This document shows, piece by piece, positions 1-64,000 of a stretch of DNA of 64,000 bases. The stretch is from IMG/VR virus record IMGVR_UViG_3300045988_128600, one strand, 5' to 3'. The notes beneath the pieces are model-generated. The model was not told where the DNA came from, ran no database searches, and saw nothing but the letters and a program-made list of their open reading frames with translations. Within the stretch, counting starts at the first letter, position 1; the number at the start of each line of letters is the position of its first letter. Source of the stretch: a virus. The position numbers and the translations under genes are program-made.

Positions 1-19
1 AAATGATGATCGGTAAATC

Positions 20-223
20 TCATTTATTTTCTCCTTCATCAGATTTATTAAAACAAAAATGTAAATATTTATTTAAATCAGGAAGATTACCTAATTTTGG
101 AGGTATATTAAATAAATAAGGTTTATCTCCTTTAGTAAAATCTAAAAAATTATTTAGAAGAAAATAAACTTTTTCTTTATATTCTTGATAAGTTTCAATC
201 ATAAATACTTTCTCCTTTTCCAT
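20..223 (-). CDS. hypothetical small protein, last gene of the left-end minus-strand operon
   Basis: 67-aa ORF ending in TGA; very AT-rich; no recognisable motif. Confidence 0.3.
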   Translation of the reverse strand: MEKEKVFMIETYQEYKEKVYFLLNNFLDFTKGDKPYLFNIPPKLGNLPDLNKYLHFCFNKSDEGENK

Positions 224-2273
224 CTAAATAATTCAAAAACCATTCATAAGTAGGTACATAACATAACTCATTATTAAGATAATTTAATAATGGATAAATT
301 TCATTTTTAATATCATTAAAATTAGTTATACATTCTCCTCTTAGAAGATTAAATTCAATTTTCTAATTTTTAATATCTTCTATAATTTGTTTATCTAAAT
401 TGCATAAATTAGGGATATTATTAAAATCTTCTTTATTATTATATAAATTATACATAGTATATAATATATAATAAATTAAAAGAAGAATTTTTTCTAAAAA
501 ATAATTATTTTCATATCCATAAAAAGAAGAATCTAAATCACTTACTAATTTTATTTCATTAATAATCCTATAAAGATTCCGTCTTAAAGTGCTTTGTTTG
601 CAATCTTCGTCAATATTTTCTAATTTTAAAATATCAATAAAATTAGCAAAAAATACAATTATTTTATTGATATATCCTGTAATTATCATATTAGAATTAG
701 AATGAGATAAACAATTAGGATTGTCTTCTAACTAAGTTATATAAAGACCCAGATTCTAATCTTCTAACTCATAAGATTCACCATAAATATCGCATCTATC
801 TAAGAAAATACTGTCTTCTCCAAAGAAAAATTTTGAATATTTTATATTATTCTTAATAAGAAAATCTCTTTTAAGAATTAAATTAATCTTTTCAACTGAC
901 TTATCAACATTAGCTATTTTAAATACACCAAAATCTTCCTCACTATGTTTTATTGAATTATATAAAATTTCTAGAACATTATCATTCGGAAATAAATCAT
1001 CAGAATCCCAAAATAATACATATTTATTAAAAGAATACTCTAATCCTAAATTACGAGTTAGACCGGGTCCTTTTCGTTCTAAATTTTTAAAAAAGAAACA
1101 AGGAAAACTCGCTTCATCAAATACTTCAATAAGTTTTTTATCATAGAAAGAATGGTCGCTAATAAAATATACACAACAGTCTTTTATAATTGTTTGAGTG
1201 GATAAATTATTATACAAATTAATAATTTGCTAATCATTCATATTATAATAAGGTATTATAATATCCATTTTTCCATCAATAAAACGAGTAAAACATTTTT
1301 TTAAATAATAAGTATTATATCTAAATTCAATTGGACATCTATTTTCTTTAAATAACTAATAATTTTCTAAAAAATTTTCTTTATCATTAACTAATTTTAA
1401 ATAAAAATCATAATCTCTAAAATAGGCGTCTTCCATTGGAACTATAAATTCTGATTTTGTATCATAATATTTGTGCCAAATCCAAGAAGCTTCAGACATA
1501 GTTCCATCACAATATTTACAAATATTTTTAGGTTTAAAAATAAAATTATGTAAATCATCTAAACTATTTATATCCTCTAACCGCAAATAATCACTTTCAT
1601 CTTCTGGAATATTTACATTATATTTTTTTCTATAAATATCCAAATGTGCAGAAAAAGGACATATATAAATTTTATAATTTTTTAAAGTAAAACAAGGTAG
1701 CTAATGCGGACATTTATGAAAATATACTTCATTTATATCAGTAGTTCCCGCTTCATTTACAAGCTATTGTCGCATAAATAATCTTGAATTATGATTAAAC
1801 CCTAAACCATGACTATCTAAATATTCTACCGCTTTATGATCAGTATATTTTCCATAAGTAGTAATATCAAATATTACTCCCATATCTTGATATTCTTTCT
1901 CATGTTTAAAAGCATCTTGTAAATGACACCCATTGCTTAATATTTTAATTTCTACTTTATCTTTTGGAAAAACTTCTCTAGCAATCTAACATATTTCAAA
2001 TAATTTTGGATGTAAAGTAGGCTCTCCACCTAAAATCATAAAAAGTTTTATATTTGGAATTTTTTTATAAGCAAAAGTAATTTGATTGCGAAAATCATCT
2101 AAATCAATATACCAAGGTTCTGCCAAGGGAGAAAAATGATTACATCCCGCGCAATTAAGGTTACAATGATCTACAATATGCATTTCTAAGCTAACACCAT
2201 CATAGACCGATTTCCACACTGGATTAGTATAAGGAGGAATCCCTTGATAATTTTTAGTTCTATCTATTTCCAT
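195..2273 (-). CDS. radical-SAM domain followed by a family-2 glycosyltransferase domain in one continuous amber-read-through frame (a fusion, or two adjacent genes that cannot be separated under recoding)
   Basis: ATG at 2273-2271 sits 5 nt after a GGAGGA SD. The N-terminus has CNLNCAGC (CxxxCxxC) and ILGGEPTLHP. The frame has only TAG (about 8) and no TAA/TGA until TGA at 195-197. From M at about 1268 the sequence reads MDIIIPYYN...GPGLTRNLGL...WDSDD, which are GT-A/GT2 motifs. Confidence 0.5.
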
Positions 2274-2835
2274 ATTTATCCTCCAAAACATTTATAATAT
2301 TTCCATCATAATTAACTAATTCTTTTATTTGACTATCTCTTTCCTATAAAAAACATTCCGTACAAATTTCATTTATATCATTTAAATCACTATGAAAAAA
2401 TTCACAACGATGTATTTTTCTATTTAACTATTCACAATTTTTATCACACTTTAAAATCTATTCTTCTTTATCGTAAATAATTGGATGTTCTTCTTCAAAT
2501 CGTAAAGTTAAATATAACTTAAATTCTAATTGTCCCTAACTTGAATATAACATCGTTCTATAAAAAATAGATTTTACTGTAGATTCAAACGTAAATTTTT
2601 GTTTTTGATTAAAAACTAATTCAATAATTTTTATATCTTTGTATTCTAAATCTTTTAATTGATTATACAGATAATTTAATGAAGAATATTTTATATCATT
2701 TGAATTATTTACAATTTTACAAAAAGTAATTTCTTTTGGAAAATTTAATCCAAAAACAATATCATTACATTCACGCTCGTCAAACTTTACTGATTTTAGT
2801 AAAATTTGACGAGCATTATATAAATTAATTAACAT
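2254..2835 (-). CDS. Cys-rich (CxxC pairs) hypothetical protein, TAG-recoded
   Basis: ATG overlaps the upstream TAA (TAATG). Under TAG read-through (5 TAGs) the frame stays open to TAA at 2254. Cys pairs CDKNCE and CTEC are present. It overlaps the start of the next gene by about 20 nt. Confidence 0.4.
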
Positions 2836-3143
2836 TAATAATTACGCCAATATCCAGGAATTTTATATCCTAAGAAATGACGATAAATTAAATAATCTTC
2901 ACTCATATTAGGATTTTCATCTTCATTACAATTATCACAATCACAATTATTGTTATCATTAATACTAGAATCAACAATTTTTTTAATTAAATTGTTAATA
3001 AGAGAATTGACTTCTTCATTTTCTCCATTATTTTCAATCCAATTTAAATAGATTACATATAATAAATCTTTGTAATCTCCAACATCAGATGGGTTAAAAG
3101 TGTCATCTAAATGTTGAATTTGTCTTTTCATTTCTTCAATCAT
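2835..3143 (-). CDS. small acidic Cys-containing protein (CDCDNC)
   Basis: ATG at 3143 overlaps the TGA of the upstream rSAM-SPASM gene (ATGA). It ends in TAA, which overlaps the next ATG. The position suggests a RiPP-recognition-element-like partner, but no motif proves it. Confidence 0.4.
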   Translation of the reverse strand: MIEEMKRQIQHLDDTFNPSDVGDYKDLLYVIYLNWIENNGENEEVNSLINNLIKKIVDSSINDNNNCDCDNCNEDENPNMSEDYLIYRHFLGYKIPGYWRNY

Positions 3144-4539
3144 TATAATACCCCAATTGACGGCATAAAGTAAGCCATTTTTCTTTATCGATTTCACTCT
3201 TAAAATAATTTTTTTCAACGGCAATTTGAGTTAACCCTAATTCACAATAGGTTTTTGCCAAGAAAGTTAAATGTGTTTTATGTAATTTACAAACACTTTC
3301 CCCAGGAACAAATAAATCACCTGTCGCTTCATATTGAGCGCCTAAGCATCCTTTTAAACAATAAGGATCAAAAGGACAAGTCGGACAACCAATATTCATG
3401 TGCGTATTATTCATTTTAATTACACTATACACAGTAGGATTAATAGCAGTAATACCAACTACTTTATCATCTTTTACATCAAGACGTCCGCCAAGGAACT
3501 GAGGATAAGAAGTTCTATGACAAGGCGCAAATTCAAAACTTGCTACATAAAAACAAGTCTAATGTGAAATCGCACAAGTATATTCTTCGCTATCCCAAGT
3601 AGAAGTTAATCCAAGAGGGTCATAATTGCCAAGACAAGGTAAAGAACATTCTTCTCCGTCTCCTAAAAAAATATGTCTTGCCAATTTATCTACAGATTCA
3701 CCATTTTTATGGAATCTTACTTCAAGCATATGAGTTAAAAATTCAAGATAATGATCTAGTTTTTCATCAGTCCATTCATCATTACGAACTTCCAGATACA
3801 TAGGTTGAAAATCATGAATATCTTCACCAGCAAGATTATATTTTTCATATTGTTCGTCCCACCAATCAAAATTCTTAATAGCACTCTCAATATTACTTGG
3901 AGAAATCATAGGGTGAATACCACAAGGATTTCTTTGAAGAAATTCAAGAATTTTAATATAATAACTATCATCTTTATCGCGCTCGCGCACGCTATTATAA
4001 GGTCCATCTACAGAACAAGAAAGGCTTATTTCCATATTAATAGTTTTAAATCTAGTTAAAAGTTCTTCCATTCTTTTAGCTTTTTTATCATTGGTAGCAA
4101 AACTAAAATTATTCGGCATTACAATACGAGGATGATTATTAAAAAGATTAGGATGTTCATCATACAATTCTTTATAATATTTAAACATTAATTCAAATAT
4201 TTCAAATCCAATATCATCATAAAATAAATCTCCAGCAAAAAGTTCCATTTCATGAAATAAAACTTTTCTTTCTTTAAAAATATAATTTAAAATAATATCA
4301 GTATTATGAATTAAAGTTTTATTATCAACCCGCTTTTCCATAGGGTAAAGCTTATCTCCATATCTTGCAACATAACAATATTCACATTGTTGATTGCATT
4401 CAGGTCTTATAATAAGCTCAAAAGACTCCCCATTAATCCAGTATCCTTCCTCTTGATGGTCCCTATTAAAAATATAATTATCTACAAATTTTTCAAAATA
4501 TTTATTATTATCTAATTGACAACCTTCACTAATATTCAT
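3136..4539 (-). CDS. radical SAM / SPASM-domain maturase (TAG-recoded, about 467 aa)
   Basis: CNQQCEYC (CxxxCxxC) near the N-terminus. One in-frame TAG at 3559 joins the rSAM half to a C-terminal GCPTCPFDPYCLKGC, which is exactly the SPASM CX2CX5CX3C pattern. The start is coupled to the upstream stop (TAATG). Confidence 0.65.
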
Positions 4540-6038
4540 TAATTACTTTCTCCTCTATATTCATTCATATTTTCAGTATTTTGGAACCACTCTTCTTCAG
4601 GTTTAAGTAAATTATTTTCTCTATCTACATACATAAATAATGCTGATTGAGTTCTTAAAGTACCTATACTTCTTAATAAAGCACTACCTGAAGAAATAAA
4701 ATTATTATAAGTACAAGCATCAATTTTTGTTGCAATTAATGCCAATCTTAATAATTTATCAGGATTATATTTGTAGATAGAGTTTAATTGATTACATTCA
4801 TTAAGCATTTGTAAAGTATTTACAGTCGCTTGAAACATGAATGGGAAGGAATGTGTTTTATACATATCATATTTATATATAACTTTATTAATATCTTCTT
4901 CACTATCAGTTAAAAGATTGATACAATCAGTTTTAGTACGACGAGTATCTTTTCTTAATTGCGCTCCAATAGTGCCATCATCTTTAACATTATTACCGTC
5001 AAGATCAAACATAAAGTTTTGGCAAGACATCATAGTACCATCATAAAGTAATTTTAATTCATTAAAATTACCACTACAAAAATTATTTCTTGAAGCTACG
5101 GTAATTGCTTCTTGATTTCCTTCCATAACTAATCGCATTAATTCTTGAGGTGTAATTGGACGATCTTCTCCAGTAAATCCATGTAAATCAGAAAATACTT
5201 CTTCATAAAGATGACGGTAACCAATAATAATACCAACTGGAAGATGTGGGTCATGAAAATCACTTACATCAATATTAACAAGACGTTGTAAAAAAGATTC
5301 ATACTCAATACGCTCATCAACTGATCCATCTCTTGGGTTCTCAGGGCAAATAGATACGCTACTATTTACTTCAACTCTCTAATTAAGATTAATATCAGCT
5401 AATTCGAATCCAAAATTATCTAAATCTTTATAATAATCATGAACTTTTTGAGTTGTATTAAGCTCATGAATTAAAGCTCCAGAAAGAACACCATGTAATT
5501 GAATAGATACATTTACATTATGAAATTTAATTTTATTTAATTCTTTAATTACAGTTGAAGCAGTTTCAAAGATTTTTTCATTATTGGCATTTCTAATATT
5601 ATTGGTTGAGTAAGTGCCATCGTAAGAAAATTGAACTTCTAAAGCAAGTTCATTATTTGCCAATTCATCAACTTTTTTAATAAAATTAACAGTTCTTTCA
5701 GGGAAATCCATCCCATTAGTAGAATAATCAATATGATTAATATTTGGGAAATAATTAAACCAATCTTCCAAATGATCAGTAAGAAGATGCAGGGTCAATG
5801 TAGGTTCTTGACCCCATAAAGTAAAACATTCTATTTTATATCTGTCAAGATTTAAACGCTTAAAAATACCTTTTACATTATTTAAAAAAGTGCCATCATT
5901 TAAAGCTTTAATAGTTTCATGTTGTAAATTTGCGGAGCAATTATTTAAAGTATTTTCAATAAGACAATATTTACAATGTAAATTACATCCACATGAAGAT
6001 ACTAAAGATACTGCTCTAATATCCATTTCTTTAAACAT
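4539..6038 (-). CDS. radical SAM enzyme (TAG-recoded, about 499 aa)
   Basis: SCGCNLHCKYC (CxxxCxxC) and GQEPTL (GGEP-like) motifs. ORFs 5379..6038 and 4539..5138 are in the same frame with only TAG between them. GGAG SD upstream of ATG 6038; ends TAA at 4539-4541. Confidence 0.6.
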
Positions 6039-6071: not shown

Positions 6072-6851
6072 TTAAGAACGTGATCTACCAGCGCCACTAC
6101 GATTTGTACTATTAGAAGTATAAGCCCCTCTATAGGCTCCTCTATAAGTACTTCTATTACCATTATTACTACTATAATTAGAACTTCTTACTCCATTATT
6201 ACTTGAGTAATTAGCAGTATAATAAGTATAATTACTTGAATAATTTGAACTTCTATTGCCATTATTACTACTATAGTTTGAACTTTTATTACCATTATTA
6301 CTTGAATAATCAGAAGAACGTTGGGCATTATTACTTGAATAATAAGAGCTTCTTTGGGCGTCATTACTACTATAATAAGAACTTCTTTGGGCGTCATTAC
6401 TACTATAATAAGAACTTCTTTGTGAATTATTGCTTGAATAATTAGAACTATTATAACTATTATTGCTTGTATAATCCGCACCATTATAGCTATTATTGCT
6501 TGTATAATTAGCACCACGATAACTATTATTACTTGTATAATCTGCTCCATTATAAGCGCAAATACCATTTATAGTATCAAGTTTACTTCTAATTTCTTCT
6601 AAGGGGACTCGTTTCATAAGCTCACTAGCTCTTGGAGCGGTAAAATTAGAAAAAATAGCCTAAGTTCCTACATAAGAAACATTTCTTAAATTTTCAATTT
6701 CATTTTTTAAAGTAGTAATGTCACTTTGTCTCGCATGACGCTCCCCGTTTGAGGAAGCAGTCGTGCGAGTTTGAGAAAAACGAGTCTAAGCAGTATTTAA
6801 AGTATCATATAGAGCGCGAACATCGCTCCATGAAATACGACTACCAGCCAT
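6072..6851 (-). CDS. repetitive S/N/Y-rich protein with leader-like N-terminus; candidate substrate (precursor) of the downstream rSAM/GT enzymes
   Basis: ATG at 6851-6849. Two in-frame TAGs (6786, 6660) join a non-repetitive about 80-aa N-terminal part to tandem about 10-11-aa repeats (YTSNNSY(R/N)G, QRSSYYSSN(D/N)A, NGN(K/R)SSNYSSN). Ends TAA. Confidence 0.55.
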
Positions 6852-6864
6852 TTATATTCTCTCC

Positions 6865-7281
6865 TTAATTTACAGCCTCGGGAGTGTAAGTTATATTAAG
6901 TTCTGCTACAGTATTATAACTATCAGCATATGACTTATCTCCAATATCATTATTATATTCGAAGACCATCTCAGCGATATTGGCGATATTTTTTTCAAAA
7001 ACTTTTCTATAATCATTAGAAACAGTTAAATAATATACACCAATTTTAGCAATCTTTGAACGATCAAAATTGCTAATAAGATCAGCAGAAACTTTAGATA
7101 AATTTAAAGCTTCAACATCATAACCTTCTGAATATTCACGTAGTCTGAAAGCATATTTAACTCCATTGGTTTCTCCATTAATACTCGCAGAAAAAACAAC
7201 AGGACCAGTTATAATACTTTCATTTTCTTTACCTTCATTATCAGTAACAATCACCTTAAAGGTATTATTTAATTCAGCCAT
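6865..7281 (-). CDS. hypothetical protein (138 aa), first gene of the left-end late-type operon
   Basis: Perfect AGGAGG SD. No in-frame TAG. Ends TAA. Follows the strong terminator at 7416-7447. Confidence 0.5.
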   Translation of the reverse strand: MAELNNTFKVIVTDNEGKENESIITGPVVFSASINGETNGVKYAFRLREYSEGYDVEALNLSKVSADLISNFDRSKIAKIGVYYLTVSNDYRKVFEKNIANIAEMVFEYNNDIGDKSYADSYNTVAELNITYTPEAVN

Positions 7282-7415
7282 TATTAAAATTCCTCCTAAT
7301 AAAATAAATAGTCAGGATATCATATATCCTATTTTTATTAAAAATTTATTTTATTTTATTTTTTAATTTCGGTTAAACCTAACCATTTATCATTTTTACT
7401 AAATAAATAATAACA

Positions 7416-7447
7416 AAAAAAAAGAGTAATGTCAAATGACATTACTC
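7416..7447. terminator. bidirectional rho-independent terminator
   Basis: agagtaatgtca-aa-tgacattactct hairpin flanked by an A-run and a T-run. Sits immediately 3' of gene 7454..7759 on the minus strand. Confidence 0.6.
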
Positions 7448-7453
7448 TTTAAA

Positions 7454-7759
7454 TTAACTTAATCCCAATCTTGCCTTCAAATCGGCAATATTTTTCTTTT
7501 CATCTGTGGTGATTTCAATCGGGGTTTCTCCACCTGCGGTTGCCCCATCTTCAAAATTCAAAACATTTGAATCCGCGGTTGCACCTGCTTCACCGACCGG
7601 AGTCTTTGGGCATGTCATACTAATAGCAATCTGAATTCGCTCACCATTTTCATTAGCCCAAAGATAATACTTTTTATCTCGCTCGCCGATCCAATCAGCG
7701 CCAAATACTTCCGCCATTTTCTTAGCGATCTGTTCCTTAGCTACTGCGCCTTTGGCCAT
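7454..7759 (-). CDS. hypothetical protein
   Basis: 101-aa ORF ending TAA; no in-frame TAG. Confidence 0.45.
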   Translation of the reverse strand: MAKGAVAKEQIAKKMAEVFGADWIGERDKKYYLWANENGERIQIAISMTCPKTPVGEAGATADSNVLNFEDGATAGGETPIEITTDEKKNIADLKARLGLS

Positions 7760-7771
7760 ATCTAATTCTCC

Positions 7772-9223
7772 TTAACTAAAATTATGTATAAAGTCTTTTA
7801 AAGACCTAAAATTATTAACTTTTTCTTCACCAGCATCTCTAAAGCACCAAGGACATAAATACATATCAGTCCCTTTATGATAGTGAATATCTTCTGTATA
7901 ATATAAATTATTACAACATTCGCATCGTTTACAATAAGTATCCGCACAACTATCGCAAACTAATTCATTCTCATCACCTACGGAATTTGCTTCATCGAGG
8001 ATTATACGAGAACCGCAACAAGCGCAATAACCATAGTTATCGTCTTCGTTTACTCCATAACTAAATTCACAGTCTCCGCATCGCATATATTCTCCACTTT
8101 CAATTATAGTTTTACCGCATTGTAAGCAGGGAACATCACCACCAATAGACCAATGAGGAAGATCAGTCTCCAATGGATAATAATACAACTTTAAACTGTA
8201 AATAGGTAAATAGCAAGAAGAATAAAGCAAATCATTATATTGAAGAGTATGCTCGCCAATATCTCCAACAATATCACCAATAGGATATAAACGAGATAAA
8301 ATAGGAATCCATGTTTCAGATAGTCCAATAGTTTCTTCACCAAAAGGAGTAGAGCTCATCCTATTAGAGACAGTGTTAATACCTCCATCTACCCAATCAC
8401 GCAACTGAAAAGTCTTATCAAAAGTATTAATAATATCTTTAATCTTAATTAAAGCATTAGTTGTCATAAAAGGATATTGGCGACCAGCCATCAGACCGCG
8501 TCGTTTATCTTCCATGTAAAGAAGCATACGCCATTTCTTAGAATTCCAAAGAACATCTTCGGGAAAGTGCGGAAGTTTCTGATTCTCCGCTCCGCGCAAA
8601 TAGCAAATAAAAGTGCTTCTATCTACCATGTAAGATAAATTTCCTGCTCTATATTCGCCATCAAGCGCATGGCAAGAACGCCAATTGTAAGTATTTTCAC
8701 TCACGCTTAAAAAATCCAAAGGATGAACTGAGAAACATAGTGTTCCCTCAATCTTATCCTCTTGGATAATACGACTTGCATAATTTTGAATGTCTTCCAA
8801 AGAGCGCGGATTCTCTTCAAAATACTTAAAAGCCTTAACTAATTTCATTCCTCTTGGAATCTTTTTATCCTTATAAAAATAAGTATCTATAACTGTATTA
8901 TCAAAGAATCCTTCTTTATTTACTGAAATAAAATCCTTTAAGTCTTCATTATTATAAGTATAATTAATTGTTTCAAGAAACTCCTCAAGACGATGCTCTT
9001 TAGTTTTATCATCTAAAGAAAAAGATACTTTTTCCGGCCATTCATAAATTAAATGACCGTGAAAAAATTTAATTAAGTCTTTTTTGGCTTCGAGGAATCT
9101 TTCGAATAGTTCTTCTGTTTTTGGATTACTGATTCCTTGGGAGTAACTGATGACTTTGTTGAACTGTTCTCTAATGCTTTCGATGTCGAAGTCACATGAC
9201 ATTTGACTAATCCTCCAATACAA
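7772..9223 (-). CDS. hypothetical protein with C-terminal multi-CxxC zinc-ribbon region; paralog of 11710..13314
   Basis: Shares an HPLD(F/Y) motif and a WNSK(K/R)WR motif with 11710..13314. The start is uncertain: the TTG-called start overlaps the upstream gene by 150 nt, and the first ATG is at 9197. Confidence 0.5.
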   Translation of the reverse strand: MYWRISQMSCDFDIESIREQFNKVISYSQGISNPKTEELFERFLEAKKDLIKFFHGHLIYEWPEKVSFSLDDKTKEHRLEEFLETINYTYNNEDLKDFISVNKEGFFDNTVIDTYFYKDKKIPRGMKLVKAFKYFEENPRSLEDIQNYASRIIQEDKIEGTLCFSVHPLDFLSVSENTYNWRSCHALDGEYRAGNLSYMVDRSTFICYLRGAENQKLPHFPEDVLWNSKKWRMLLYMEDKRRGLMAGRQYPFMTTNALIKIKDIINTFDKTFQLRDWVDGGINTVSNRMSSTPFGEETIGLSETWIPILSRLYPIGDIVGDIGEHTLQYNDLLYSSCYLPIYSLKLYYYPLETDLPHWSIGGDVPCLQCGKTIIESGEYMRCGDCEFSYGVNEDDNYGYCACCGSRIILDEANSVGDENELVCDSCADTYCKRCECCNNLYYTEDIHYHKGTDMYLCPWCFRDAGEEKVNNFRSLKDFIHNFS

Positions 9224-54829: not shown

Positions 54830-54848
54830 TTTAATATAAATTATTCCA

Positions 54849-54885: not shown

Positions 54886-54916
54886 TTGTTTTATGAGTAA
54901 AAGGAGAAATTGAATA

Positions 54917-56102: not shown

Positions 56103-56395
56103 ATATAATTTTGATATTCCAATAGAGAGCATAAAAGTAAATTGCTTGCGCTTAACCAATCAATTATGGAAATTAATTCCAATGCGCGAAAATAATGAAG
56201 ATTGGCATAAATAGCTAGAAACTGTTATAAATGAAATTGTGGGGTTTAGTGTGATTTTTAGCGCTGAACCCCTTTATTTATAGTTATTAAACAAACTTGA
56301 GGGATTATAGAATCAAGATACTGATTTTAATTTTTACCGTAAGACTGTATTTGAAACTATCAGTCTTTTATAGGAGATAAATTATGGCGTCAGGG
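56092..56395 (+). CDS. hypothetical small protein, TAG-recoded
   Basis: An ATG frame bridging the neighbouring genes, with 4 TAGs. Confidence 0.25.
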
Positions 56396-57448
56396 TTTGA
56401 TTATAGTAGTAAGCAACCTTTTAGATTATAGCAAGGTCGCTTAGGAATTTATGATAAACCACCCTTTGAAGGTAGCCCTGTTGAAGGCGTTAATTATATG
56501 GCGGTTCGGCTCGGTCAAATGGGCGGAAACCGCCAACAAGAGCGTATGATTTTATCTAAACGTAGAAGTTTAGATAGGGCAGTATGGAATTCATACCAAG
56601 CCGCGGAAATTATTAAATAGGATGCGGAATATAAAAAACCTATTAGGTGTTTGATTAATCCTAATAAATTAAAATAGGATTATGATGACAAGATTTTATC
56701 TGTTGGAAATGAATATTAGTTTAAACCAGGAGATATTTTTGAATGGTGTGGAACTAATACCTATTGGATTTGTTATCTTTAGGATTTGACTGAATTAGCT
56801 TATTTTAGAGGAGATATTAGAAAATGCTCTTATAAAATAAATTGGGTAGATGAGGGAGAGAAAAAGTCTACTTATGCAGCAATTCGCGGTCCTGTAGAAA
56901 CGAAAATTAATTATATTCAAAAACATGAAATTAGTGTAGATATTCCTAATTATTCATTAAATATTTTGATGCCTAAGAATAAAGATACTTTGAGTTATTT
57001 TAAGCGGTATACAAAATTTTATTTAGATAGTTAGGATGACGGAGATAATTTAATTTGTTGGCGTGTTGAAGCTGTAGATTCTATAAGTATGCCTGGTATT
57101 TTAGAAGTCAATGCGACTGAATATTATATTAATGAGTAGGAAGATAATTTAAATGATAAGACTGTTGGTTCTTTAATTGCGGAACCGATTGATCCGAATC
57201 CTACGACAACTGATATTATAGGAGAAACATTTATCTTTCCAAAGAAAAGTTATACTTATTATTTTGATGGTGAAGTTGTTTTAGAATGGAGCATAAAGAA
57301 TAATAAGAAGTTGCCGGTTTCTTTAAAAATTATTAAAGAAGCAAAAAAACCAACAGTTGAAATAAGTTGGACTTCTGGATATAGTGGATAGTTCGATTTA
57401 TTATATGGAGATTATAAAAAAACGATAATTGTTCAATCATTGTTTTAA
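56384..57448 (+). CDS. structural protein, TAG-recoded (about 354 aa)
   Basis: TAGGAG SD then ATG; about 9 TAGs; ends TAA. Confidence 0.45.
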
Positions 57449-57463
57449 GGAGAAAAAGGTGTT

Positions 57464-58045
57464 ATGAAGATTGATGGAGTAAAGATTCCTAAATCTAGTT
57501 TCTTATCTATGGAAAAGGATTTAGAAATTGTTGTAAATCATTTATGTAAAAATGAAAGATTAAAACGTTTATTGTATTATACTACCCCAGATGCTATAGA
57601 CAAGCCAAATCTGAGTGATGAACAAATGATTTAGTTATTTAAGAAAAATATTAAATTAATTCCTAAATTATATGTTGATGGTAGTGTTTTAAATTATGTC
57701 GTAATTAGTTTTGATAATTTTATTCCTAATGATACAAATCCAGAATTTAGGGATAATATTATTGAATTTGATATAGTTTGTCATTATGATTAGTGGCATT
57801 TAAAAGATTATTAGTTGCGTCCTTATCGCATTGCTGCGGAAATAGATAGTATGATAGATAAAACACATTTAACAGGTATTGGAAAATTGGAATTTCTTGG
57901 TGGCAACCAAATTATTTTAACTGATGAATATGCTGGTTTATGTCTTATGTATACTGCTATTCATGGAGAAGAAGATAAGAAATTTATGCCAAATCCCAAT
58001 GATGAAGAAAGATTTTTAAAAGACTTTTAGGATCGAACTAAATAA
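57464..58045 (+). CDS. structural protein, TAG-recoded
   Basis: 4 TAGs; ends in the TAATG overlap with the next gene. Confidence 0.4.
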
Positions 58046-58770
58046 TGGATTTACGTTTAGGCTTAATGTGCGGAATTGATTTACCAATACCAGAACTTTA
58101 GGCTACAATTCATTAGCCAAAGATAAAAGAGATTGCTTTTGTCGGTGAAAAAGATTTCTTCCTTGGGGTTCAATGTCTTTGTATTGATAAAAATATAATA
58201 GCCAATTAGGGCGAAAGTCTTTTAGTTAATACGAATAATTTTTAGATATTTATGACAATGATGAAAGAAAAAGAGATGGCTGAAAAAAAAGATTCAGTCA
58301 TAAATGTTTTTTCTCTTATATTTCCAAAATATAAAACTTTATTTACTCCAAGATCTATCATTTTACAAAGTGATACTTAGATAATGATTGATGATTCAAA
58401 TTTTGAAATTCTTTAGGAATATTTAAAGGAAATATTTTGTTTTAAATCTTCTATGTCTCAAGAGCTGGGTTTTAACCCTGCTAATGATACTGCTAAAAAA
58501 ATTGCAGATAAATTAATGAGAGGTAGATAGAGAGTTGCTGAATTAAATGGTTCAGCTAATGTTAGTATATTTAGTTAGTATCTTTCAATGCTTACTGTAG
58601 GTTTAGATTCAATGTCTCTACAGGATTTAATGGATTTAACAATGTTCCAACTTTTTGACCTTGTTGAAAGATATTAGCTTTATATTAATTGGGATATTGA
58701 TATTCGGTCAAGGCTAGCGGGCGGAAAACCTGATGGCAAACCGGAGAACTGGATGAAAAATATCCATTAA
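58045..58770 (+). CDS. structural protein, TAG-recoded
   Basis: About 11 TAGs; about 241 aa. Confidence 0.4.
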
Positions 58771-58794: not shown

Positions 58795-59793
58795 ATGAAA
58801 TTTGGTGTTCGCGAAATTTGCGATGTCGTTTTAAAGGCTAAGGCAACTCAAAAGGTTGGTAATAAAATCTTTTATAGAAATGAGCCAGTTATTTATTTCG
58901 ACACTTTAAAAACTTCCAGCATGGAAGGCGCTGCTACCACTGTATATGCACAGGGAGGACGCGGTAATGCTCGTTTAGTAGCCTGGGAAGGTGAGCGTAC
59001 TGTTACCTTTACAATGGAAGATGCTCTTATTTCTCCAGAAGGTTTCATGATTCTTTCTGGTGCTGGTCTTGTTGAAGCAAGTGCTACTAGTACTATTAAA
59101 CAGCACGTTACTGAAACTGTAGATAAATCACAAATTGATAGTACAACCACTGAAGGACAAGTTACTATTCGTGTTTCTAAAAAGCCCTATCTTCCAACAG
59201 ACGAACAAGAGAATTTTGCTTATGTTATGTTTGTCAAAGATGGCGAAATTATCACTGAGCCTTTTATTCCTGTCCATGAGGAGTTAACTGCTAAGACAGA
59301 TACTAACGGTAATGAATATTTTGAATTAACTCTTAAAACTCCACATGATGATTATATTGCTGGTACAGGTAATTATACTTTTAATGAAAAGAATGGCCTT
59401 CCAGCGGCTGCAGCATATGATAGTGCTATTGTTGATTATTATACTGAAAAGGCTAGTGGCGCTCAACAGATTGAGATTACTGCTGATAAATTCGGTGGTA
59501 ACTATTATCTTGAAGCCTCTACTTTATTCCGTGATCAAAATGGTGTTGATATGCCTGCTGAATTTATTATTCCTAACTGCAAGATTCAGTCTAACTTCAC
59601 CTTCACAATGGCTTCTTCTGGTGATCCTTCTACTTTCACCTTTACTATGGATGCTTTCCCTGATTATACTCGTTTTGACCACAGTAAGAAAGTTCTTGCC
59701 GCAATTCAAATTATTGAGGAAGGCGGAGCTAGTGACCTCCATCGTACTATGACTGCTCACGATGAGGCTCACAATGCTTCTTTCACTGACTGA
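58795..59793 (+). CDS. major tail protein (putative; no TAG codons)
   Basis: AAGGAGG SD; 332 aa; located upstream of the chaperone and tape-measure genes. Confidence 0.4.
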   Translation: MKFGVREICDVVLKAKATQKVGNKIFYRNEPVIYFDTLKTSSMEGAATTVYAQGGRGNARLVAWEGERTVTFTMEDALISPEGFMILSGAGLVEASATSTIKQHVTETVDKSQIDSTTTEGQVTIRVSKKPYLPTDEQENFAYVMFVKDGEIITEPFIPVHEELTAKTDTNGNEYFELTLKTPHDDYIAGTGNYTFNEKNGLPAAAAYDSAIVDYYTEKASGAQQIEITADKFGGNYYLEASTLFRDQNGVDMPAEFIIPNCKIQSNFTFTMASSGDPSTFTFTMDAFPDYTRFDHSKKVLAAIQIIEEGGASDLHRTMTAHDEAHNASFTD

Positions 59794-60031: not shown

Positions 60032-61138
60032 ATGAATTCGTTATAGAGAAGTATTAAGGCCAGTCCAAGAGAAATGAATACAGAAGATTTTTTAAAGAAA
60101 TCTTATGAATTTACAAAAAGAAGTATGAGTTAGAAATTAAGAGCAAGAGATACTTCTGAAAAACAAGCTAAAAAATTAGAAGAATTCTTTCAAAGTATTC
60201 AAAATAGATAGCTTGGAAATCCTATCGAAAATATCCAAATGAGTGAATTATTAGATGCTTTAGAATAGATTAATCCTTAGCTTTTTAATTCAATGAAATA
60301 TTTATTTACTACGCCAGATAACTATGGAGATTCTAATGATGCGCATGGTAAATATTTTGAAGGGGTTATTGCGGAAGCGGTTGCCACTGCGGAGAATTAT
60401 TTTGCTGGTAATAAAACTATGACTATAAGTGGAAGTAGTAAAAAGGCTGGAACCGCATCTGTTAATCTTATAGATTTAGCAAAGGATTTAGATGAAGATA
60501 CAAAAAATCTAATGAATGATATTTATTAGAAAACTGCCCAAGAAATGAAAAAAGATAGTGAAGCTGCCTCTTCTATGATAAAAGGAGTTTCTGGCAAAGC
60601 GGATATTATAGGAATTTAGTAGAATTATACAATATAGAAAACTAGCCATTTAGAATTAGATGAAGAAATTTATGATGCTTTATTAAATGCTACTTTTACT
60701 GCGAAAAATTATATGTCTAACACTTAGATTGAATTAGGATCTACTAATCCTTTTCGTGTTTTTATGACTATGATTCCTCTTGGAGGAGCTACAAGTAAAA
60801 TTTAGAGATATTACCGTATGTTGGCTTGTAAATAGAAGCACTTTCCTGATAAGCATCCTGATGCACCAAAGTATTTTTATAGATTAAGAGCTATTTATGA
60901 ATTAACTGGTGGAAAATCTAATTATACTAATACTGTATTAAATAAGCTAATAGGTGGAAATTATACTAAATTTTTAGTTTTAAATTTATAGGGACATATA
61001 AGAGTTATTCCTACTTAGAGTGTCATAAAAGAGCTTATTGACAATATTGATGATGATTAGTTTAATAAAGATATAGATTGGCAAAAGGCTTTATATGGAC
61101 GTATTAGGATTAATCAAAATAAATTTAGTGAAATTTAA
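60032..61138 (+). CDS. tail-region protein, heavily TAG-recoded (about 15 TAG)
   Basis: AAAGGAGAG SD then ATG; the frame is open to TAA at 61136 only if TAG is read as sense. Confidence 0.4.
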
Positions 61139-61730: not shown

Positions 61731-61782
61731 TTAAATTATTTAATTTAATTAATTTTTTAAAGTCATTAGAGTAATGGGGATA

Positions 61783-61825
61783 AGAGTATTTTATTACTCT
61801 TATCCCCTTTTTATTTTTATTTTGC
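61783..61825 (+). terminator. rho-independent terminator
   Basis: ggggataagagta-ttttat-tactcttatcccc hairpin, then a T-run. Confidence 0.6.
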
Positions 61826-61859
61826 AAAGTAAAAATTAAGAGAGAAAGGAGATTTTTTG

Positions 61860-64000
61860 ATGGCTAAACAATTAAATAGTTATCAAGTTAATTTACAATT
61901 TAATGCAAATACTACATAGGCGAAAATGCAATTGCAGGATTTGCAAACGACTCTTGATGCTATTATAAAAGAATCTGTGGCGGGAGTCTCTAAAGGAGAT
62001 TTTAATTTAACTAAAAGATTAAATGAAGCACAGATAGCGGCATCAAAACTACAAACCATTTTAGCTCAAACTACTAATGTAGAAACGGGAAAAATGGATT
62101 TAACAAGATTTTCTCAATCTTTAAAATAGAGTAACTTAGATTTAAAAAAGATATAGAGTAGTTTACTTGAGCTTGGGCCTTCTGGACAAAAAGCTTTTAT
62201 GTCTTTAGCTCAATCTATTGTTGAAGCTGATGTTCCATTAAAAAGAACAAATTTATTAGTTTCTGAATTATGGACAACTTTAAAGAACACAGCTCGTTGG
62301 TAGATTTCTTCTAGTGCATTGCATGCATTTATGGGTACTATTCAATCTGCTTATGGATATGCTAAAGATTTAAATGAATCTTTAAATGATATTCGTATTG
62401 TTACTGGACACAATATTGAATATATGGATAAATTTGCTGAAAGAGCAAATAAAGCGGCGAAAGCATTAAATGCTACTACATTAGATTACACTAATGCTTC
62501 TTTAATTTACTATCAATAGGGTTTAAGTGATGAAGAAGTAGAAAAAAGAACAGATATTACTGTTAAAATGGCTAATGTCATTAAACAAAATGCTGATATT
62601 GTTTCTGATCAATTAACTGCGATTTGGAATAATTTCTATGATGGCTCTGACTCTCTAGAACATTATGCTGATGCGATGGTGCGCTTAGGTGCAGATACCG
62701 CATCTAGCTCTGATGAAATTGCTGGTGGTCTTGAAAAATTTGCGGCAGTTGCTAATACAATTGGTTTAAGCTTTGATAATGCAGCGGCTGCATTGGCTAC
62801 TATTACTGCTACAACTCGTCAAAGTGAAGATGTAGTAGGTACTTCTTTAAAGACTATTTTTGCTCGTATTCAAGGTTTAAAATTAGGCGAGACCTTAGAA
62901 GATGGTACTACTTTAAATCAGTACTCACAAGCTCTTGCAGCTGTTGGAGTTAATATTAAAGACTCCAATGGACAATTAAAGGATATGGATATCATTCTTG
63001 ATGATTTGGGGCACAAATGGTCAACAATTAGTAAAGATCAACAGGTAGCTTTAGCTCAACAAGTAGCTGGTATCCGTCAGTACAACCAATTAATTGCTTT
63101 AATGGATAATTTTGATTTTTATCAAGAAAATATTCAAAGAGCAAAAGAAGCAGATGGTTCTTTACAAGAACAAGCTGATATTTATGCTGAAAGCTGGGAA
63201 GCTGCTCGTGATCGTGTGCGTGCAGCAGCCGAAAGTATTTATGATGATTTGATTAATGATAAATTTTTTATTAGTTTGTCTGATGCGATAGCAGGAGCTT
63301 TAGATGCTATCGATAAATTGATTAGTTCTATAGGAGGTCTTCCAGGAGTAATTGCAGCTCTTGGAATGATATTTACTAAAGTGTTTAAAGTTCAAATGGG
63401 CGAGGGCGTTAATAATTTAGTTTTTGGCCTTTAGTCTTTAATTGGACTTACAAAAAAGAGTGCAGTTTCTCTTAAACAAGAAGCTTATAATCGAGCTTCT
63501 AATATGGCTTTTGATACTGGTACTGAAGTTGGAGATAGGTAGGGAGAATCATTAAAATAGACTTTAGACTTAAAGAAAAGAATATATGATATATCTGAAA
63601 ATATTACAAAAGAGGAAAGACAATAGCTTGAAGGGTTAATTGAAATTAATCGAGCTTATAATGAACAGGCTATAAAAGCAGCTCAAAAAAAAGATTAGGC
63701 TAGTGAGAATCTTCAAAATACTCGCATGGATCTTAGAGCGCGCATAAGAAGAAATTCTGCCACTGGAGAAGTAGAGAAAAATTTAAATACTTTTGGAAAT
63801 GTTCAATAGCAAATGAGTGGAATTATTAAAACTGGTTTGCGAGGAAGTAAAGCTTTAGATGGACTTAATAAAGCATTAAAAGAAGGAAGTTCATTAGGAA
63901 AAGCTTTTGAAGGTAGAATAAATACAATTCAGTAGGCTTTAATTAAAGTAGATAGATCTAAAGCAGCTGAATCTATTGGAAATTTTGCTGAAGAGTTAAA
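61860..64000 (+). CDS. tail tape measure protein (partial, continues beyond the window), TAG-recoded
   Basis: ATG at 61860; more than 700 aa within the window and more than 12 TAGs. The central region (YAKDLNESLNDIRIVTG...GLSDEEV...) resembles the tape-measure core domain. Confidence 0.6.

What the first reader, a model, noticed from the sequence alone, without database searches (positions are those of the whole stretch)
1..64000. Stage-specific amber (TAG) stop-codon reassignment
Consecutive ORF fragments in the late, endonuclease, replication-initiator and left-end genes repeatedly end in TAG and continue in the same frame. This is seen in the large terminase, portal, tape-measure protein, 60032-61138, the HNH and GIY-YIG endonuclease genes, the RepA_N-like gene, all three rSAM genes and the repetitive protein. 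Real ends are TAA or TGA, and starts are often coupled (TAATG/ATGA). In contrast, about 60 genes across 7.4-24 kb and 28.7-43.7 kb contain no in-frame TAG and all stop at TAA. The HNH catalytic motif (DHINGN...NLRWGSPEDN) exists only if four TAGs are translated. By analogy with recoded gut phages the codon most likely encodes Gln. A dedicated suppressor tRNA was not found in this window.
Basis: seen in the sequence. Interest (0 to 1): 0.85.

Follow-up and report, generated by a model that had tools for sequence, protein, structure and literature searches.

The report
Gut phage reads TAG as glutamine
This stretch of a roughly 190 kb human-gut phage uses the stop codon TAG as a glutamine codon in its virion, endonuclease and radical-SAM genes but not in its early-type genes. 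This is a real example of a phage trick that has already been well described.

Summary
If only TAA and TGA are treated as stops, 24 of 83 called genes carry 123 in-frame TAGs. Profile and tblastn matches run across those TAGs in single stretches for portal, terminase, HNH, radical SAM and tape measure. The 53 minus-strand genes at 6.9-24 kb and 28.7-44.6 kb have no secure in-frame TAG.

TAG means glutamine. In 82 related contigs, 65% of the changed codons aligned to TAG are CAA or CAG. Standard-code relatives and cultured Firmicute phages have Q at portal TAG columns.

The missing suppressor lies about 14 kb to the left of the window. All 10 close relatives that were read there carry a tRNA(CUA) in a roughly 20-tRNA array. 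It has no encoded CCA and is followed directly by a minimal HDV-like ("theta") ribozyme.

Some details of the finding were wrong:
- The HNH gene has 3 TAGs, not 4.
- 14 TAG-free genes end in TGA.
- The "RepA_N" label is unsupported.
- Capsid, tube and three other late genes are TAG-free.

Stage-specificity is inferred, not shown. The phenomenon is known (Borges 2021, Kienbeck 2024, and phAss-1 in Babkin 2023). This is a new member of a known kind.

The parts
195..2291 (-). Radical SAM + glycosyltransferase-2 fusion gene with 8 in-frame TAGs
   Evidence: Pfam Radical_SAM matches residues 39-135 and Glycos_transf_2 matches 344-490, and both stretches span TAGs. All 8 TAGs are conserved in L083-L085.
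2254..2835 (-). Gene of unknown function with 5 in-frame TAGs
   Evidence: Gene call. TAG at codon 136 is CAG in L083. No Pfam hit.
3136..4539 (-). Radical-SAM-like gene (CNQQCEYC motif) with 1 in-frame TAG
   Evidence: The TAG at codon 327 is CAG in L084 and L085. No Pfam hit at E<=0.01; the motif was seen in the translation.
4539..6038 (-). Radical SAM gene with 1 in-frame TAG
   Evidence: Pfam Radical_SAM matches residues 14-166 with E=1e-5, below the gathering score. The TAG at codon 220 is CAA in L084 and L085.
6072..6851 (-). Repetitive Ser/Asn/Tyr-rich protein gene with 2 in-frame TAGs
   Evidence: Translation. 33-nt tandem repeat, 11.9 copies. Both TAGs are conserved in 3 relatives.
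6865..23985 (-). TAG-free gene block 1: 28 genes, GC3 about 0.43 (pooled with block 2), CAG >= CAA
   Evidence: TAG by frame is 2/43/56 and stops are 22 TAA and 6 TGA. Pfam hits are DUF5052, Metallophos and tRNA_anti-like. Codon usage.
17581..17790 (-). Small gene ending in a TAG-TGA tandem, which terminates under either code
   Evidence: The TAG is the last codon before TGA.
24506..25156 (+).
   Evidence: Only weak HTH_36 and LexA_DNA_bind hits (E=0.0086) and phrog_3502. No RepA_N hit.
25353..25916 (+). Gene with a GIY...YIG motif and 5 in-frame TAGs
   Evidence: The motif GIYGIY..LIYIGKT is visible in the translation. No Pfam or PHROG hit.
27879..28493 (-). NUMOD4 + HNH_3 homing-endonuclease gene with 3 in-frame TAGs
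   Evidence: Pfam HNH_3 matches residues 128-170 (spans the TAG at 145) and NUMOD4 matches 83-121 (spans the TAG at 114). Both exceed the gathering score.
28698..44582 (-). TAG-free gene block 2: about 25 small genes at 40-45% GC
   Evidence: TAG by frame is 1/23/16. Minus-strand ORFs hit PHROGs: phrog_20187, polynucleotide kinase / 5'-3' deoxyribonucleotidase, and antitoxin. The long plus-strand ORFs hit nothing.
44948..45086 (.). Divergent sigma-70-like promoter pair between the early-type block and the late operon
   Evidence: TTGACA-17-TATAAT (12 of 12) at 45058-45086 on the plus strand, and TTGACA-17-TATTAT (11 of 12) at 44976-44948 on the minus strand. These are consensus matches only.
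45111..47403 (+). First two late-operon genes (351 aa with 2 TAGs; 395 aa YonG_N-like with 9 TAGs)
   Evidence: phrog_3314 matches residues 2-341 in one stretch. PF27269 YonG_N is recorded on the identical ENA gene.
47403..49142 (+). Large terminase gene with 7 in-frame TAGs
   Evidence: phrog_2 (terminase large subunit) matches residues 41-438 and spans 5 TAGs.
49525..51174 (+). Portal gene with 10 in-frame TAGs
   Evidence: phrog_2739 matches residues 73-546 in one stretch and spans 9 TAGs. A single tblastn piece aligns to annotated portals of cultured Enterococcus phages. Q is found at the TAG columns.
52788..55510 (+). Three TAG-free late genes, including the major capsid protein (53723-54829, YonB family)
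   Evidence: 0 TAGs against 14, 12 and 5 CAA/CAG codons. The median TAG count is 0 in up to 82 relatives. PF27364 YonB.
55530..58770 (+). Head-tail and tail genes with 3, 8, 4 and 9 in-frame TAGs (YomW and YomV families)
   Evidence: phrog_4051 matches residues 1-240 and spans all 9 TAGs of 58045-58770. Pfam YomW and YomV_2nd.
58795..59793 (+). Tail tube gene (YomU_Tube), TAG-free
   Evidence: phrog_2729. PF27173. 0 TAGs against 11 CAA/CAG codons.
60032..61138 (+). Gene of unknown function with the highest TAG load: 15 TAGs in 368 codons, 68% of its Gln-type codons
   Evidence: Binomial P(>=15)=0.0004 against the late-operon average. Relatives carry 9-15 TAGs. No family hit.
61857..64000 (+). 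N-terminal 713 codons of the tape-measure gene with 12 in-frame TAGs. The gene runs off the window and is 2968 aa on the ENA contig.
   Evidence: Pfam PhageMin_Tail matches residues 198-405. Gene length.

Best explanation
The window comes from a roughly 186-200 kb tailed phage of the human gut. It has an SPbeta-like virion module and its host is probably a member of the Bacillota. The phage uses genetic code 15, in which UAG is read as glutamine.

Shown:
- TAG is an in-frame sense codon in 21-24 genes. It supplies about 38% of their Gln-type codons, and these genes almost lack CAG.
- TAG is interchangeable with CAA and CAG in relatives.
- Near-identical relatives encode a tRNA with anticodon CUA in a roughly 20-tRNA array about 14 kb beyond the left edge of the window, on the same strand as the leftward genes.
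- That tRNA lacks an encoded CCA, has a mismatched 1-72 pair and a G73 discriminator. A sequence that aligns end to end with an HDV-type ribozyme model follows it immediately.

Inferred:
- After infection, host ribosomes translate the TAG-free leftward genes, which have more host-like, GC-richer codon usage.
- The tRNA array is then expressed. The ribozyme cuts off the 3' trailer of the suppressor tRNA, host enzymes add CCA and charge the tRNA with Gln, and UAG read-through begins to outcompete release factor 1.
- Only then can full-length terminase, portal, tail, tape-measure, homing-endonuclease and radical-SAM-cluster proteins be made.
- A perfect sigma-70 consensus sits in front of the late operon. 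This suggests the gate acts on translation rather than only on transcription.
- The highest-copy virion proteins (capsid, tube and neighbours) are kept TAG-free, presumably because suppression is leaky or costly.
For: - In-frame TAG census and frame bias.
- Homology crossing TAGs: Pfam HNH_3, NUMOD4, Radical_SAM, GT2 and PhageMin_Tail. PHROG portal 73-546, terminase 41-438 and phrog_4051 1-240. A single-piece tblastn alignment to annotated portals of cultured phages.
- The identical ENA contig is already called with the read-through protein lengths, and those proteins hit Yon/Yom Pfam families.
- Gln identity: of 2236 changed cells at TAG codons, 1186 are CAA and 262 are CAG, and Tyr codons are not in the top 8. 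60 of 85 sites have a Gln codon in a relative, and Q is the commonest alternative at 50 of 76 variable sites. The single TAGs of the two rSAM genes are CAG or CAA in relatives. Q occupies portal TAG columns in code-11 relatives and in cultured Firmicute phages.
- Suppressor tRNA: a CUA tRNA in 10 of 10 relatives. Several of those contigs also carry the late module at 92-98% identity to the window. Rfam tRNA score 52.3 bits. Cloverleaf structures.
- Ribozyme: RF02682 aligns over its full model length starting 1 nt after the tRNA. A second copy sits right after tRNA-Ala.
- Early-gene avoidance and the codon-usage split.
- Promoters.
- Published model: Borges et al., Kienbeck et al., Babkin et al..
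Against: - The tRNA(CUA) was seen in relatives, not in the window's own genome, whose remainder could not be read.
- The ribozyme match (27.7 bits) is below Rfam's gathering score of 44.
- No expression-timing data exist. 'Early' and 'late' are inferred from gene content and orientation.
- The TAG/non-TAG split also tracks base composition (GC3 of 0.18 against 0.43). Composition or gene origin could therefore contribute.
- Five or six genes inside the late operon are TAG-free, while the rSAM cluster, which lies upstream of the tRNA array on the leftward strand, uses TAG.
- The commonest tRNA(CUA) type in the closest relatives has a roughly 20-nt variable arm, which is unusual for tRNA-Gln.
- The host and its Gln-charging route are unknown.
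Confidence: 0.85

Rival explanations
1. TAG is read as Gln, but the recoding is not a timing switch. It would be a by-product of AT-biased drift plus acquisition of a suppressor tRNA (codon capture). The distribution of TAG would then reflect expression level, gene age or module origin rather than infection stage.
For: - TAG use tracks composition: TAG genes have GC3 of 0.18 and 22-33% GC, while TAG-free blocks have GC3 of 0.43 and 36-45% GC.
- The most abundant late proteins are TAG-free, both here and in relatives.
- Non-structural genes (rSAM cluster, endonucleases) use TAG.
- Code-11 and code-15 genomes coexist at 81-87% MCP identity, so the state is labile.
- Borges et al. themselves propose a low-GC route to recoding.
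Against: - There are 0 secure in-frame TAGs among about 145 Gln codons in 53 leftward genes. That avoidance is far stronger than composition predicts, because out-of-frame TAGs are plentiful there.
- In TAG genes, TAG makes up about 38% of Gln-type codons, whereas other G-ending codons are only 8-20% (up to 43% for Ala) of their A/G pairs, so TAG is actively preferred.
- One early-type gene ends in a TAG-TGA tandem, as expected if it must terminate under both codes.
Confidence: 0.25
2. TAG is decoded as an amino acid other than Gln (Ser, Tyr, Trp or pyrrolysine). This would apply at least in genomes carrying the 90-nt tRNA(CUA), whose long variable arm and G73 resemble class II tRNAs such as tRNA-Ser.
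For: - ARAGORN labels the tRNA 'Pyl', though by anticodon only.
- The type B tRNA has a variable region of about 20 nt and G73.
- Kienbeck et al. report non-Gln isotype predictions for about 30% of phage suppressor tRNAs.
Against: - TAG exchanges overwhelmingly with CAA and CAG, and its other substitutions (Glu, Lys) match those of CAA. Ser is the commonest alternative at only 3 of 76 sites, and Tyr also at 3.
- The relatives used in these tallies include contigs that carry the type B tRNA.
- Q occupies the TAG columns in standard-code phages.
Confidence: 0.05
3. TAG is a true stop. On this view the TAG-containing genes are pseudogenes or fragments, or the pattern is an assembly or sequencing artefact or a chimera of two phages.
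For: Table-11 gene calling fragments these genes. The AT-rich and GC-richer parts of the window differ sharply in composition.
Against: - All 123 interruptions are of one codon type, with no in-frame TAA or TGA.
- Single profile alignments cross up to 9 TAGs.
- The same architecture and many of the same TAG positions recur in more than 80 independent contigs.
- Independent contigs are collinear across both compositional boundaries: L083 and L085 over window 1-12.3 kb, and L001 and L006 from 43.6 kb.
Confidence: 0.01
4. The host itself reads UAG as sense or lacks release factor 1, so the phage simply matches its host.
For: The host is unknown. The related contigs sit in MAG bins of various Bacillota, and one is labelled Mollicutes.
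Against: - 53 genes avoid in-frame TAG completely.
- Relatives with 81-87% MCP identity use TAG as a real stop, for example at the end of the portal gene in L032.
- The phage lineage carries its own tRNA(CUA).
- Borges et al. found that code-matched phages have in-frame recoded stops in about 90% of their genes, against 29% here.
Confidence: 0.03

Closest known systems
Code-15 (TAG to Gln) recoded gut phages as described by Borges et al. 2021/2022 (crAss-like, Lak, Garnet, Amethyst, Topaz; some Agate and Sapphire genomes)
   Same: - In-frame TAG in structural and late genes, with a subset of genes compatible with the standard code.
- A phage-encoded suppressor tRNA.
- Recoded homing endonucleases.
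- Low GC content.
- Code-11 and recoded genomes within a single clade (searches compared).
   Different: - Clade membership was not tested, because no terminase tree was built.
- The genome is about 190 kb with an SPbeta-like virion module and a probable Bacillota host.
- The capsid and tube genes are TAG-free here, whereas a tail tube family was preferentially recoded in their crAss-like set.
- No release-factor or aaRS gene was seen in the parts that were read.
Phage phAss-1 (OQ749652) and its group (Babkin et al. 2023); NCBI taxon 'Caudoviricetes code 15 clade'
   Same: - It is the closest annotated phage: MCP 50% and portal 39% identical by tblastn.
- It comes from the human gut.
- It has TAG in terminase, portal, tape measure and other genes.
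- It carries tRNA-Sup(CTA) genes and a large tRNA set, and no dedicated aaRS.
- It has relatives among the Enterococcus EF1-type phages.
   Different: - phAss-1 is 136 kb, and there is no nucleotide-level match (megablast found none), so this is not the same genus.
- phAss-1 has three suppressor tRNA genes; here one was seen in the region read.
- The rSAM/YcaO cluster was not examined in the phAss-1 genome or paper.
Theta (minimal HDV-like) ribozymes next to phage suppressor tRNAs (Kienbeck et al. 2024)
   Same: [quoted passage not shown]
- The tRNA lacks an encoded CCA.
- The same ribozyme sequence follows three different tRNA bodies, and a second copy follows tRNA-Ala.
- The setting is a gut phage using code 15 (searches compared).
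   Different: - The match here is only a sub-threshold Rfam match to RF02682 (27.7 bits against a gathering score of 44).
- Their descriptor motif was not run.
- No cleavage data exist.
- About 90% of their predicted hosts were Bacteroidota, whereas a Bacillota host is likely here.
SPbeta-like siphophages of Bacillota (SPbeta, Enterococcus EF1/VRE9, Bacillus Kirov, Brevibacillus Sundance)
   Same: Virion-module families YonG, YonD, YonB, YomW, YomV, YomU and YomO in the same order. Portal and MCP homology of 22-40%.
   Different: Those cultured phages use the standard code. Their annotated portal genes have no in-frame TAG.

Membership tests
Code-15 (TAG to Gln) recoded phages | In-frame TAGs in conserved phage genes, where reading through them restores full-length homologues | tested here: met
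   There are 123 in-frame TAGs. Single-stretch PHROG, Pfam and tblastn matches cross them.
Code-15 (TAG to Gln) recoded phages | TAG positions align with Gln in relatives and in standard-code homologues | tested here: met
   CAA and CAG make up 65% of changed cells. 60 of 85 sites have a Gln codon in a relative. The rSAM TAGs are CAG or CAA in relatives. Portal columns carry Q.
Code-15 (TAG to Gln) recoded phages | The genome encodes a tRNA with anticodon CUA | tested here: met
   There is none in the window. It is present in 10 of 10 close relatives, about 14 kb beyond the left edge of the window. The window's own genome outside the window could not be read.
Code-15 (TAG to Gln) recoded phages | Only part of the gene set is recoded, and the rest is compatible with the standard code | tested here: met
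   24 of 83 genes carry TAG. 53 leftward genes have no secure in-frame TAG and almost never end in TAG.
Code-15 (TAG to Gln) recoded phages | The host uses the standard code | not testable with these tools
   The host is unknown. The indirect evidence is that relatives with 81-87% MCP identity use TAG as a stop and that related contigs sit in Bacillota MAG bins.
Code-15 (TAG to Gln) recoded phages | Gln is actually inserted at UAG, and recoded genes are expressed late | not testable with these tools
   This needs proteomics and time-course data.
Theta-ribozyme-associated suppressor tRNA | The ribozyme cleavage site lies within 5 nt of the tRNA 3' end | tested here: met
   The tRNA ends at L087 13652 and the HDV-type match starts at 13653. 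A second case follows tRNA-Ala: the tRNA ends at 5190 and the match starts at 5191.
Theta-ribozyme-associated suppressor tRNA | Minimal HDV-like fold with a conserved core | tested here: inconclusive
   RF02682 aligns over model positions 1-74 with P4 reduced, but the score is 27.7 bits against a gathering score of 44 (E=0.0014 in a 201-nt search). The authors' descriptor was not run.
Theta-ribozyme-associated suppressor tRNA | The tRNA lacks an encoded CCA tail | tested here: met
   All three tRNA(CUA) types end in ...G73-C and are followed by GGTGCT.
Theta-ribozyme-associated suppressor tRNA | Self-cleavage activity | not testable with these tools
   This needs an in vitro transcription and cleavage assay.
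Phassvirus (phAss-1 genus) | Nucleotide-level genome similarity (about 83-86% among members) | tested here: not met
   Megablast of window 45000-64000 against INPHARED found no match. Protein identity is 50% for MCP and 39% for portal. This phage is a related lineage, not a member of the genus.
Pyrrolysine decoding of UAG | UAG is read by tRNA-Pyl as a lysine derivative, so it should not be interchangeable with Gln codons | tested here: not met
   The substitution spectrum is that of Gln. The tRNAs have ordinary D and T arms, and ARAGORN's 'Pyl' label follows from the anticodon alone. pyl genes were not searched for.

The most novel reading that the evidence does not exclude
In this lineage UAG may act as a graded translational throttle rather than a simple early/late switch.

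- The late operon sits behind a perfect host-type promoter.
- Its highest-copy products (capsid, tube and neighbours) are kept TAG-free, with more host-like codons.
- Low-copy assembly, tail, endonuclease and RiPP-like genes are loaded with TAG, up to 68% of Gln codons in 60032-61138.
- The decoding module is itself a swappable cassette. Three unrelated tRNA(CUA) bodies sit in front of one fixed ribozyme, and one of them has a class-II-like variable arm that might change charging efficiency or identity.
Probability: 0.2. Interest if true: 0.5.

Novelty: new member of a known kind. Interest (0 to 1): 0.3.

Why it matters
- Practical value: this phage group must be annotated with table 15, otherwise terminase, portal, tail and auxiliary genes fall apart into fragments. 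Two PHROG families of 'unknown function' that match the two halves of the terminase (phrog_15503 and phrog_24618) may be products of that kind of fragmentation.
- Biological value: the lineage is a compact natural system for studying how the genetic code changes. Code-15 and code-11 genomes share 81-87% capsid identity. The suppressor-tRNA-plus-ribozyme cassette sits at a fixed site, and genes within one operon differ clearly in whether they use TAG.
- It does not open a new question. It adds a Bacillota-type, roughly 190 kb example to a published phenomenon.

Tried and rejected
- Simple ORF totals with each stop codon made sense in turn were uninformative, because the AT-rich sequence yields many spurious ORFs. 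I replaced them with codon-scored gene calls.
- The look-up of encoding contigs did not find the 189-aa and 67-aa end proteins. The window's own genome could therefore not be extended.
- The DNA search on viral contigs returns loci of only about 1.1 kb, which is useless for walking. I walked with the search for related loci instead.
- The ±10 kb around the capsid gene holds no tRNA in 60 relatives.
- ARAGORN's 'tRNA-SeC (tca)' lies inside a 676-aa ORF and is not supported by Rfam. I rejected it as an opal suppressor.
- ARAGORN's 'tRNA-???' with a 2-nt anticodon at the start of the array scores 42.7 bits as a tRNA, but I did not interpret it.
- The RepA_N label for 24506-25156 and a profile-level GIY-YIG call for 25353-25916 were not supported.
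- An attempt to fetch the tRNA region of the code-11 relatives found only code-15 contigs and unrelated phages. Whether code-11 relatives lack the tRNA(CUA) is still open.
- No release factor, aaRS or CCA-adding enzyme was found among the 10 proteins scanned next to the tRNA array. Most of the genome was not seen.
- Rfam at gathering thresholds finds nothing in the window.

Full report
**Observation**

The window is 35% GC and contains no tRNA. I called genes with only TAA and TGA as stops, using a self-trained codon score. This gave 83 genes covering 78% of the sequence. Twenty-four of them contain 123 in-frame TAGs:
- 17 in the five leftmost minus-strand genes (195-6851)
- 15 in three plus-strand genes at 24.5-26.2 kb
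- 3 in the HNH gene 27879-28493
- 85 in the plus-strand operon from 45111 to the end of the window

Two minus-strand blocks, 6865-23985 and 28698-44582, hold 53 genes with only three in-frame TAGs. None of the three is a secure sense codon. One is the last codon before a TGA (17581-17790). The other two lie upstream of alternative start codons.

TAG is not rare in those blocks in the other reading frames. The counts by frame are 2/43/56 and 1/23/16, against 85/132/107 in the late operon. In the nearly identical locus L001, ORFs of at least 150 aa cover 40% of the late region under table 11 and 74% when TAG is read as sense.

**Are the fragments parts of single proteins?**

Yes.
- With X at the TAG positions, the portal matches phrog_2739 in one stretch (residues 73-546) that spans 9 of its 10 TAGs.
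- The terminase matches phrog_2 over 41-438, spanning 5 TAGs.
- phrog_4051 covers 1-240 of the 58045-58770 product and spans all 9 of its TAGs.
- Pfam HNH_3 (128-170) and NUMOD4 (83-121) each span a TAG and exceed their gathering scores. So do Radical_SAM and Glycos_transf_2 in the 195-2291 product and PhageMin_Tail in the tape-measure protein.
- tblastn aligns the read-through portal in a single piece to annotated portal proteins of cultured Enterococcus, Bacillus and Brevibacillus phages.
- The capsid protein is encoded identically on a 186 kb human-gut ENA contig that is 99.98% identical to window 43669-64000. That collection's gene calls already have the read-through lengths (579, 395, 528, 354 aa and so on). 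They hit the SPbeta-type families YonG, YonD, YonB, YomW, YomV, YomU and YomO.

**Which amino acid does TAG encode?**

Across 82 related loci, codons aligned to the late-operon TAGs gave 2236 changed cells. Of these, 1186 are CAA and 262 are CAG. The next most frequent are GAA, AAA, GAG and AAG, which is the same substitution spectrum that CAA shows. Tyr codons, which are only one mutation away from TAG, are not in the top eight.

Site by site, 60 of 85 TAG positions have a Gln codon in at least one relative. Q is the commonest alternative at 50 of 76 variable sites. The single TAGs of the two radical-SAM genes are CAG or CAA in two of three relatives.

The clade also contains standard-code members: L028-L041, L060-L066, L082 and L099, with capsid identity of 81-87%. 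Their late genes have no in-frame TAG, and TAG is the real stop of their portal gene. Those genomes have Q at most of the window's portal TAG columns. Cultured Enterococcus, Bacillus and Brevibacillus phages have Q at four of them. TAG therefore encodes Gln.

**Where is the suppressor tRNA?**

It is not in the window and not within 10 kb of the capsid gene in 60 relatives. I walked leftward from the leftmost gene in IMG/VR relatives that are 93% identical to window 1-12.3 kb. This showed that the window starts about 3.4 kb from a tRNA array on the window's minus strand.

One more step recovered the whole array, about 20 tRNAs, in ten contigs. All ten carry a tRNA with anticodon CUA. Several of these contigs are the same ones whose late modules are 92-98% identical to the window. 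In contig 118866 the CUA tRNA lies about 13.7 kb beyond the window's left edge.

Rfam's tRNA model scores the CUA tRNA at 52.3 bits. Three unrelated tRNA bodies occupy the same site between identical flanks: 73 nt, 90 nt with a roughly 20-nt variable arm, and 72 nt. All three have a mismatched 1-72 pair and G73, and none encodes CCA. From my recollection of E. coli GlnRS identity rules, a weak 1-72 pair, G73 and U35 fit Gln identity. That is a lead, not a test.

The base after the tRNA begins a sequence that aligns over the whole HDV-F-prausnitzii model with a shortened P4. The score is 27.7 bits, below the gathering score of 44. A second such match starts one base after tRNA-Ala. This is the arrangement described for theta ribozymes next to suppressor tRNAs in code-15 gut phages. 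An ARAGORN 'SeC(tca)' call lies inside a long ORF and was rejected.

**Pattern of TAG use**

TAG-containing genes are very AT-rich at third codon positions (GC3 0.18). They almost lack CAG (17 CAG against 182 CAA and 120 TAG). The TAG-free leftward genes have GC3 of 0.43 and use CAG more than CAA. Regional GC runs at 22-33% against 36-45%.

Within the late operon, six genes have no TAG: 52788-53705, the capsid gene, 54917-55510, the tube gene, 59793-59966 and 61161-61730. The first four together hold 42 CAA/CAG codons. For five of them the median TAG count in relatives is 0 (for 61161-61730 it is 1). By contrast, 60032-61138 uses TAG for 15 of 22 Gln-type codons.

The leftward TAG-free genes that could be annotated are of early or auxiliary type: a phosphoesterase, a polynucleotide-kinase/deoxyribonucleotidase-like protein, an antitoxin-like protein and DUF5052. 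A perfect TTGACA-17-TATAAT sits 25 nt upstream of the first late gene. An 11-of-12 match faces the other way.

**Mechanism**

Shown: TAG is a Gln sense codon in a defined gene subset. The lineage encodes a tRNA(CUA) with an abutting HDV-type element. The other genes avoid TAG.

Inferred, following Borges et al.: host ribosomes first translate the TAG-free genes. Once the tRNA array is expressed and processed, UAG read-through permits full-length synthesis of terminase, portal, tail, tape-measure, endonuclease and rSAM-cluster proteins. The consensus promoter before the late operon suggests that translation, and not only transcription, sets the timing. The TAG-free capsid and tube genes suggest that suppression is costly for very high-copy proteins. 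No expression data support the timing claim.

**Rival explanations**

- Pseudogenes, artefact or chimera. This is excluded by the single codon type, the homology spanning TAGs, recurrence in more than 80 contigs, and collinearity of independent contigs across both compositional boundaries.
- A non-Gln residue. This is unlikely given the substitution spectra, although the long-arm tRNA type is unexplained.
- A recoded host. This is unlikely given the TAG-free genes and the code-11 relatives.
- A non-adaptive origin, or a distribution driven by expression level rather than by stage. This remains plausible, and I give it about 0.25.

**Comparison with known systems**

This is genetic code 15 in a gut phage, as described by Borges et al. 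That work already covers recoded homing endonucleases, code-neutral early genes, low GC content and mixed codes within clades.

The closest annotated phage is phAss-1 (OQ749652), which NCBI files under 'Caudoviricetes code 15 clade'. Its capsid is 50% identical and its portal 39% identical. It has no nucleotide-level match to the window, so this phage is a different genus-level lineage. The tRNA-ribozyme unit matches Kienbeck et al.. The virion module is SPbeta-like.

- The HNH gene has 3 TAGs, not 4.
- 14 of the 53 TAG-free genes end in TGA.
- 24506-25156 is not shown to be RepA_N.
- 25353-25916 has a GIY-YIG motif but no profile hit.
- The late module contains TAG-free genes.

**Verdict**

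The phenomenon is well documented, and existing pipelines already handle it for this very sequence. This is a new member of a known kind, of modest interest.

Noticed in passing
window 195-6851 (-), continuing left of the window (L087 586-3122): This looks like a RiPP-type biosynthetic cluster in a phage. It holds three radical-SAM genes (one fused to a GT2 glycosyltransferase) and a repetitive Ser/Asn/Tyr-rich 259-aa protein with 33-nt repeats (11.9 copies). In relatives, a YcaO cyclodehydratase (Pfam E=7e-29) and a weak peptidase-U32-like gene lie immediately beyond the window edge. The window genes of the cluster use TAG. Only 3 IMG/VR contigs carry the rSAM-GT gene.
   Followed up: partly
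L087 13580-13652, L088 13432-13521, L095 6666-6737: Three unrelated tRNA(CUA) bodies (73 nt; 90 nt with a roughly 20-nt variable arm; 72 nt) occupy the same site between identical flanks in closely related genomes, upstream of the same ribozyme-like sequence. The long-arm type is the commonest, and its aminoacylation identity is unclear.
   Followed up: partly
L087 5191-5249 and 7941-7991: A second HDV-like match (28.5 bits) starts one base after tRNA-Ala. There is also a sub-threshold twister-P1 ribozyme match (40.4 bits, gathering score 67.2) inside the tRNA array.
   Followed up: no
L028-L041, L060-L066, L082, L099: These relatives have 81-87% capsid identity but use the standard code. Their late genes have no in-frame TAG, and TAG is the genuine stop of the portal gene. 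Whether they lack the tRNA(CUA) could not be checked.
   Followed up: partly
window 43918-44074: A near-perfect 27-bp tandem repeat (5.8 copies, 98% matches) lies about 0.9-1 kb to the left of the divergent promoter-like pair that separates the early-type and late genes. It could be an iteron or regulatory array.
   Followed up: no
window 45058-45086 (+), 28642-28614 (-), 27618-27590 (-): There are three perfect 12-of-12 sigma-70 consensus matches (TTGACA-17-TATAAT). One lies directly upstream of the first late gene and one upstream of the HNH gene.
   Followed up: no
window 26911-27019 and 24138-24447: Further short tandem repeats (26 nt x 2.7 at 100% matches, 21 nt, 43 nt) lie in the intergenic regions that flank the AT-rich plus-strand island at 24.5-26.7 kb.
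   Followed up: no
window-wide: 1-7 kb, 24-26 kb and 44-64 kb compared with 8-24 kb and 28-44 kb: There is a sharp compositional split. TAG-using regions are 22-33% GC (GC3 0.18), while TAG-free regions are 36-45% GC (GC3 0.43). The two classes also prefer different Gln, Lys and Leu codons.
   Followed up: partly
window 47403-49142: The two halves of the terminase match two PHROG families of 'unknown function' very strongly (phrog_15503 at 1e-60 and phrog_24618 at 4e-50). These families may have been built from table-11 fragments of recoded terminases.
   Followed up: no
L087 17499-18989 and 14835-16865: Beyond the tRNA array lie a protein with an Mtd_N domain (major tropism determinant N-terminal domain, as in targets of diversity-generating retroelements) and a 676-aa Ser/Thr/Gly-rich protein with 4 TAGs. 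These are probably receptor-binding or tail-fibre genes.
   Followed up: no
L120 14290-14412: In a more distant recoded relative, the gap between tRNA-Gln(UUG) and tRNA-Tyr holds a tRNA-like sequence. It has matching acceptor and T arms and ends in CCA, but carries a roughly 50-nt insertion. ARAGORN does not call it. In L095 this is the position where the CUA tRNA sits.
   Followed up: no
window 36124-36573 (-), 34337-34834 (-): Among the small TAG-free genes are an antitoxin-like protein (phrog_4681, 4e-20) and a polynucleotide-kinase / 5'-3' deoxyribonucleotidase-like protein.
   Followed up: no
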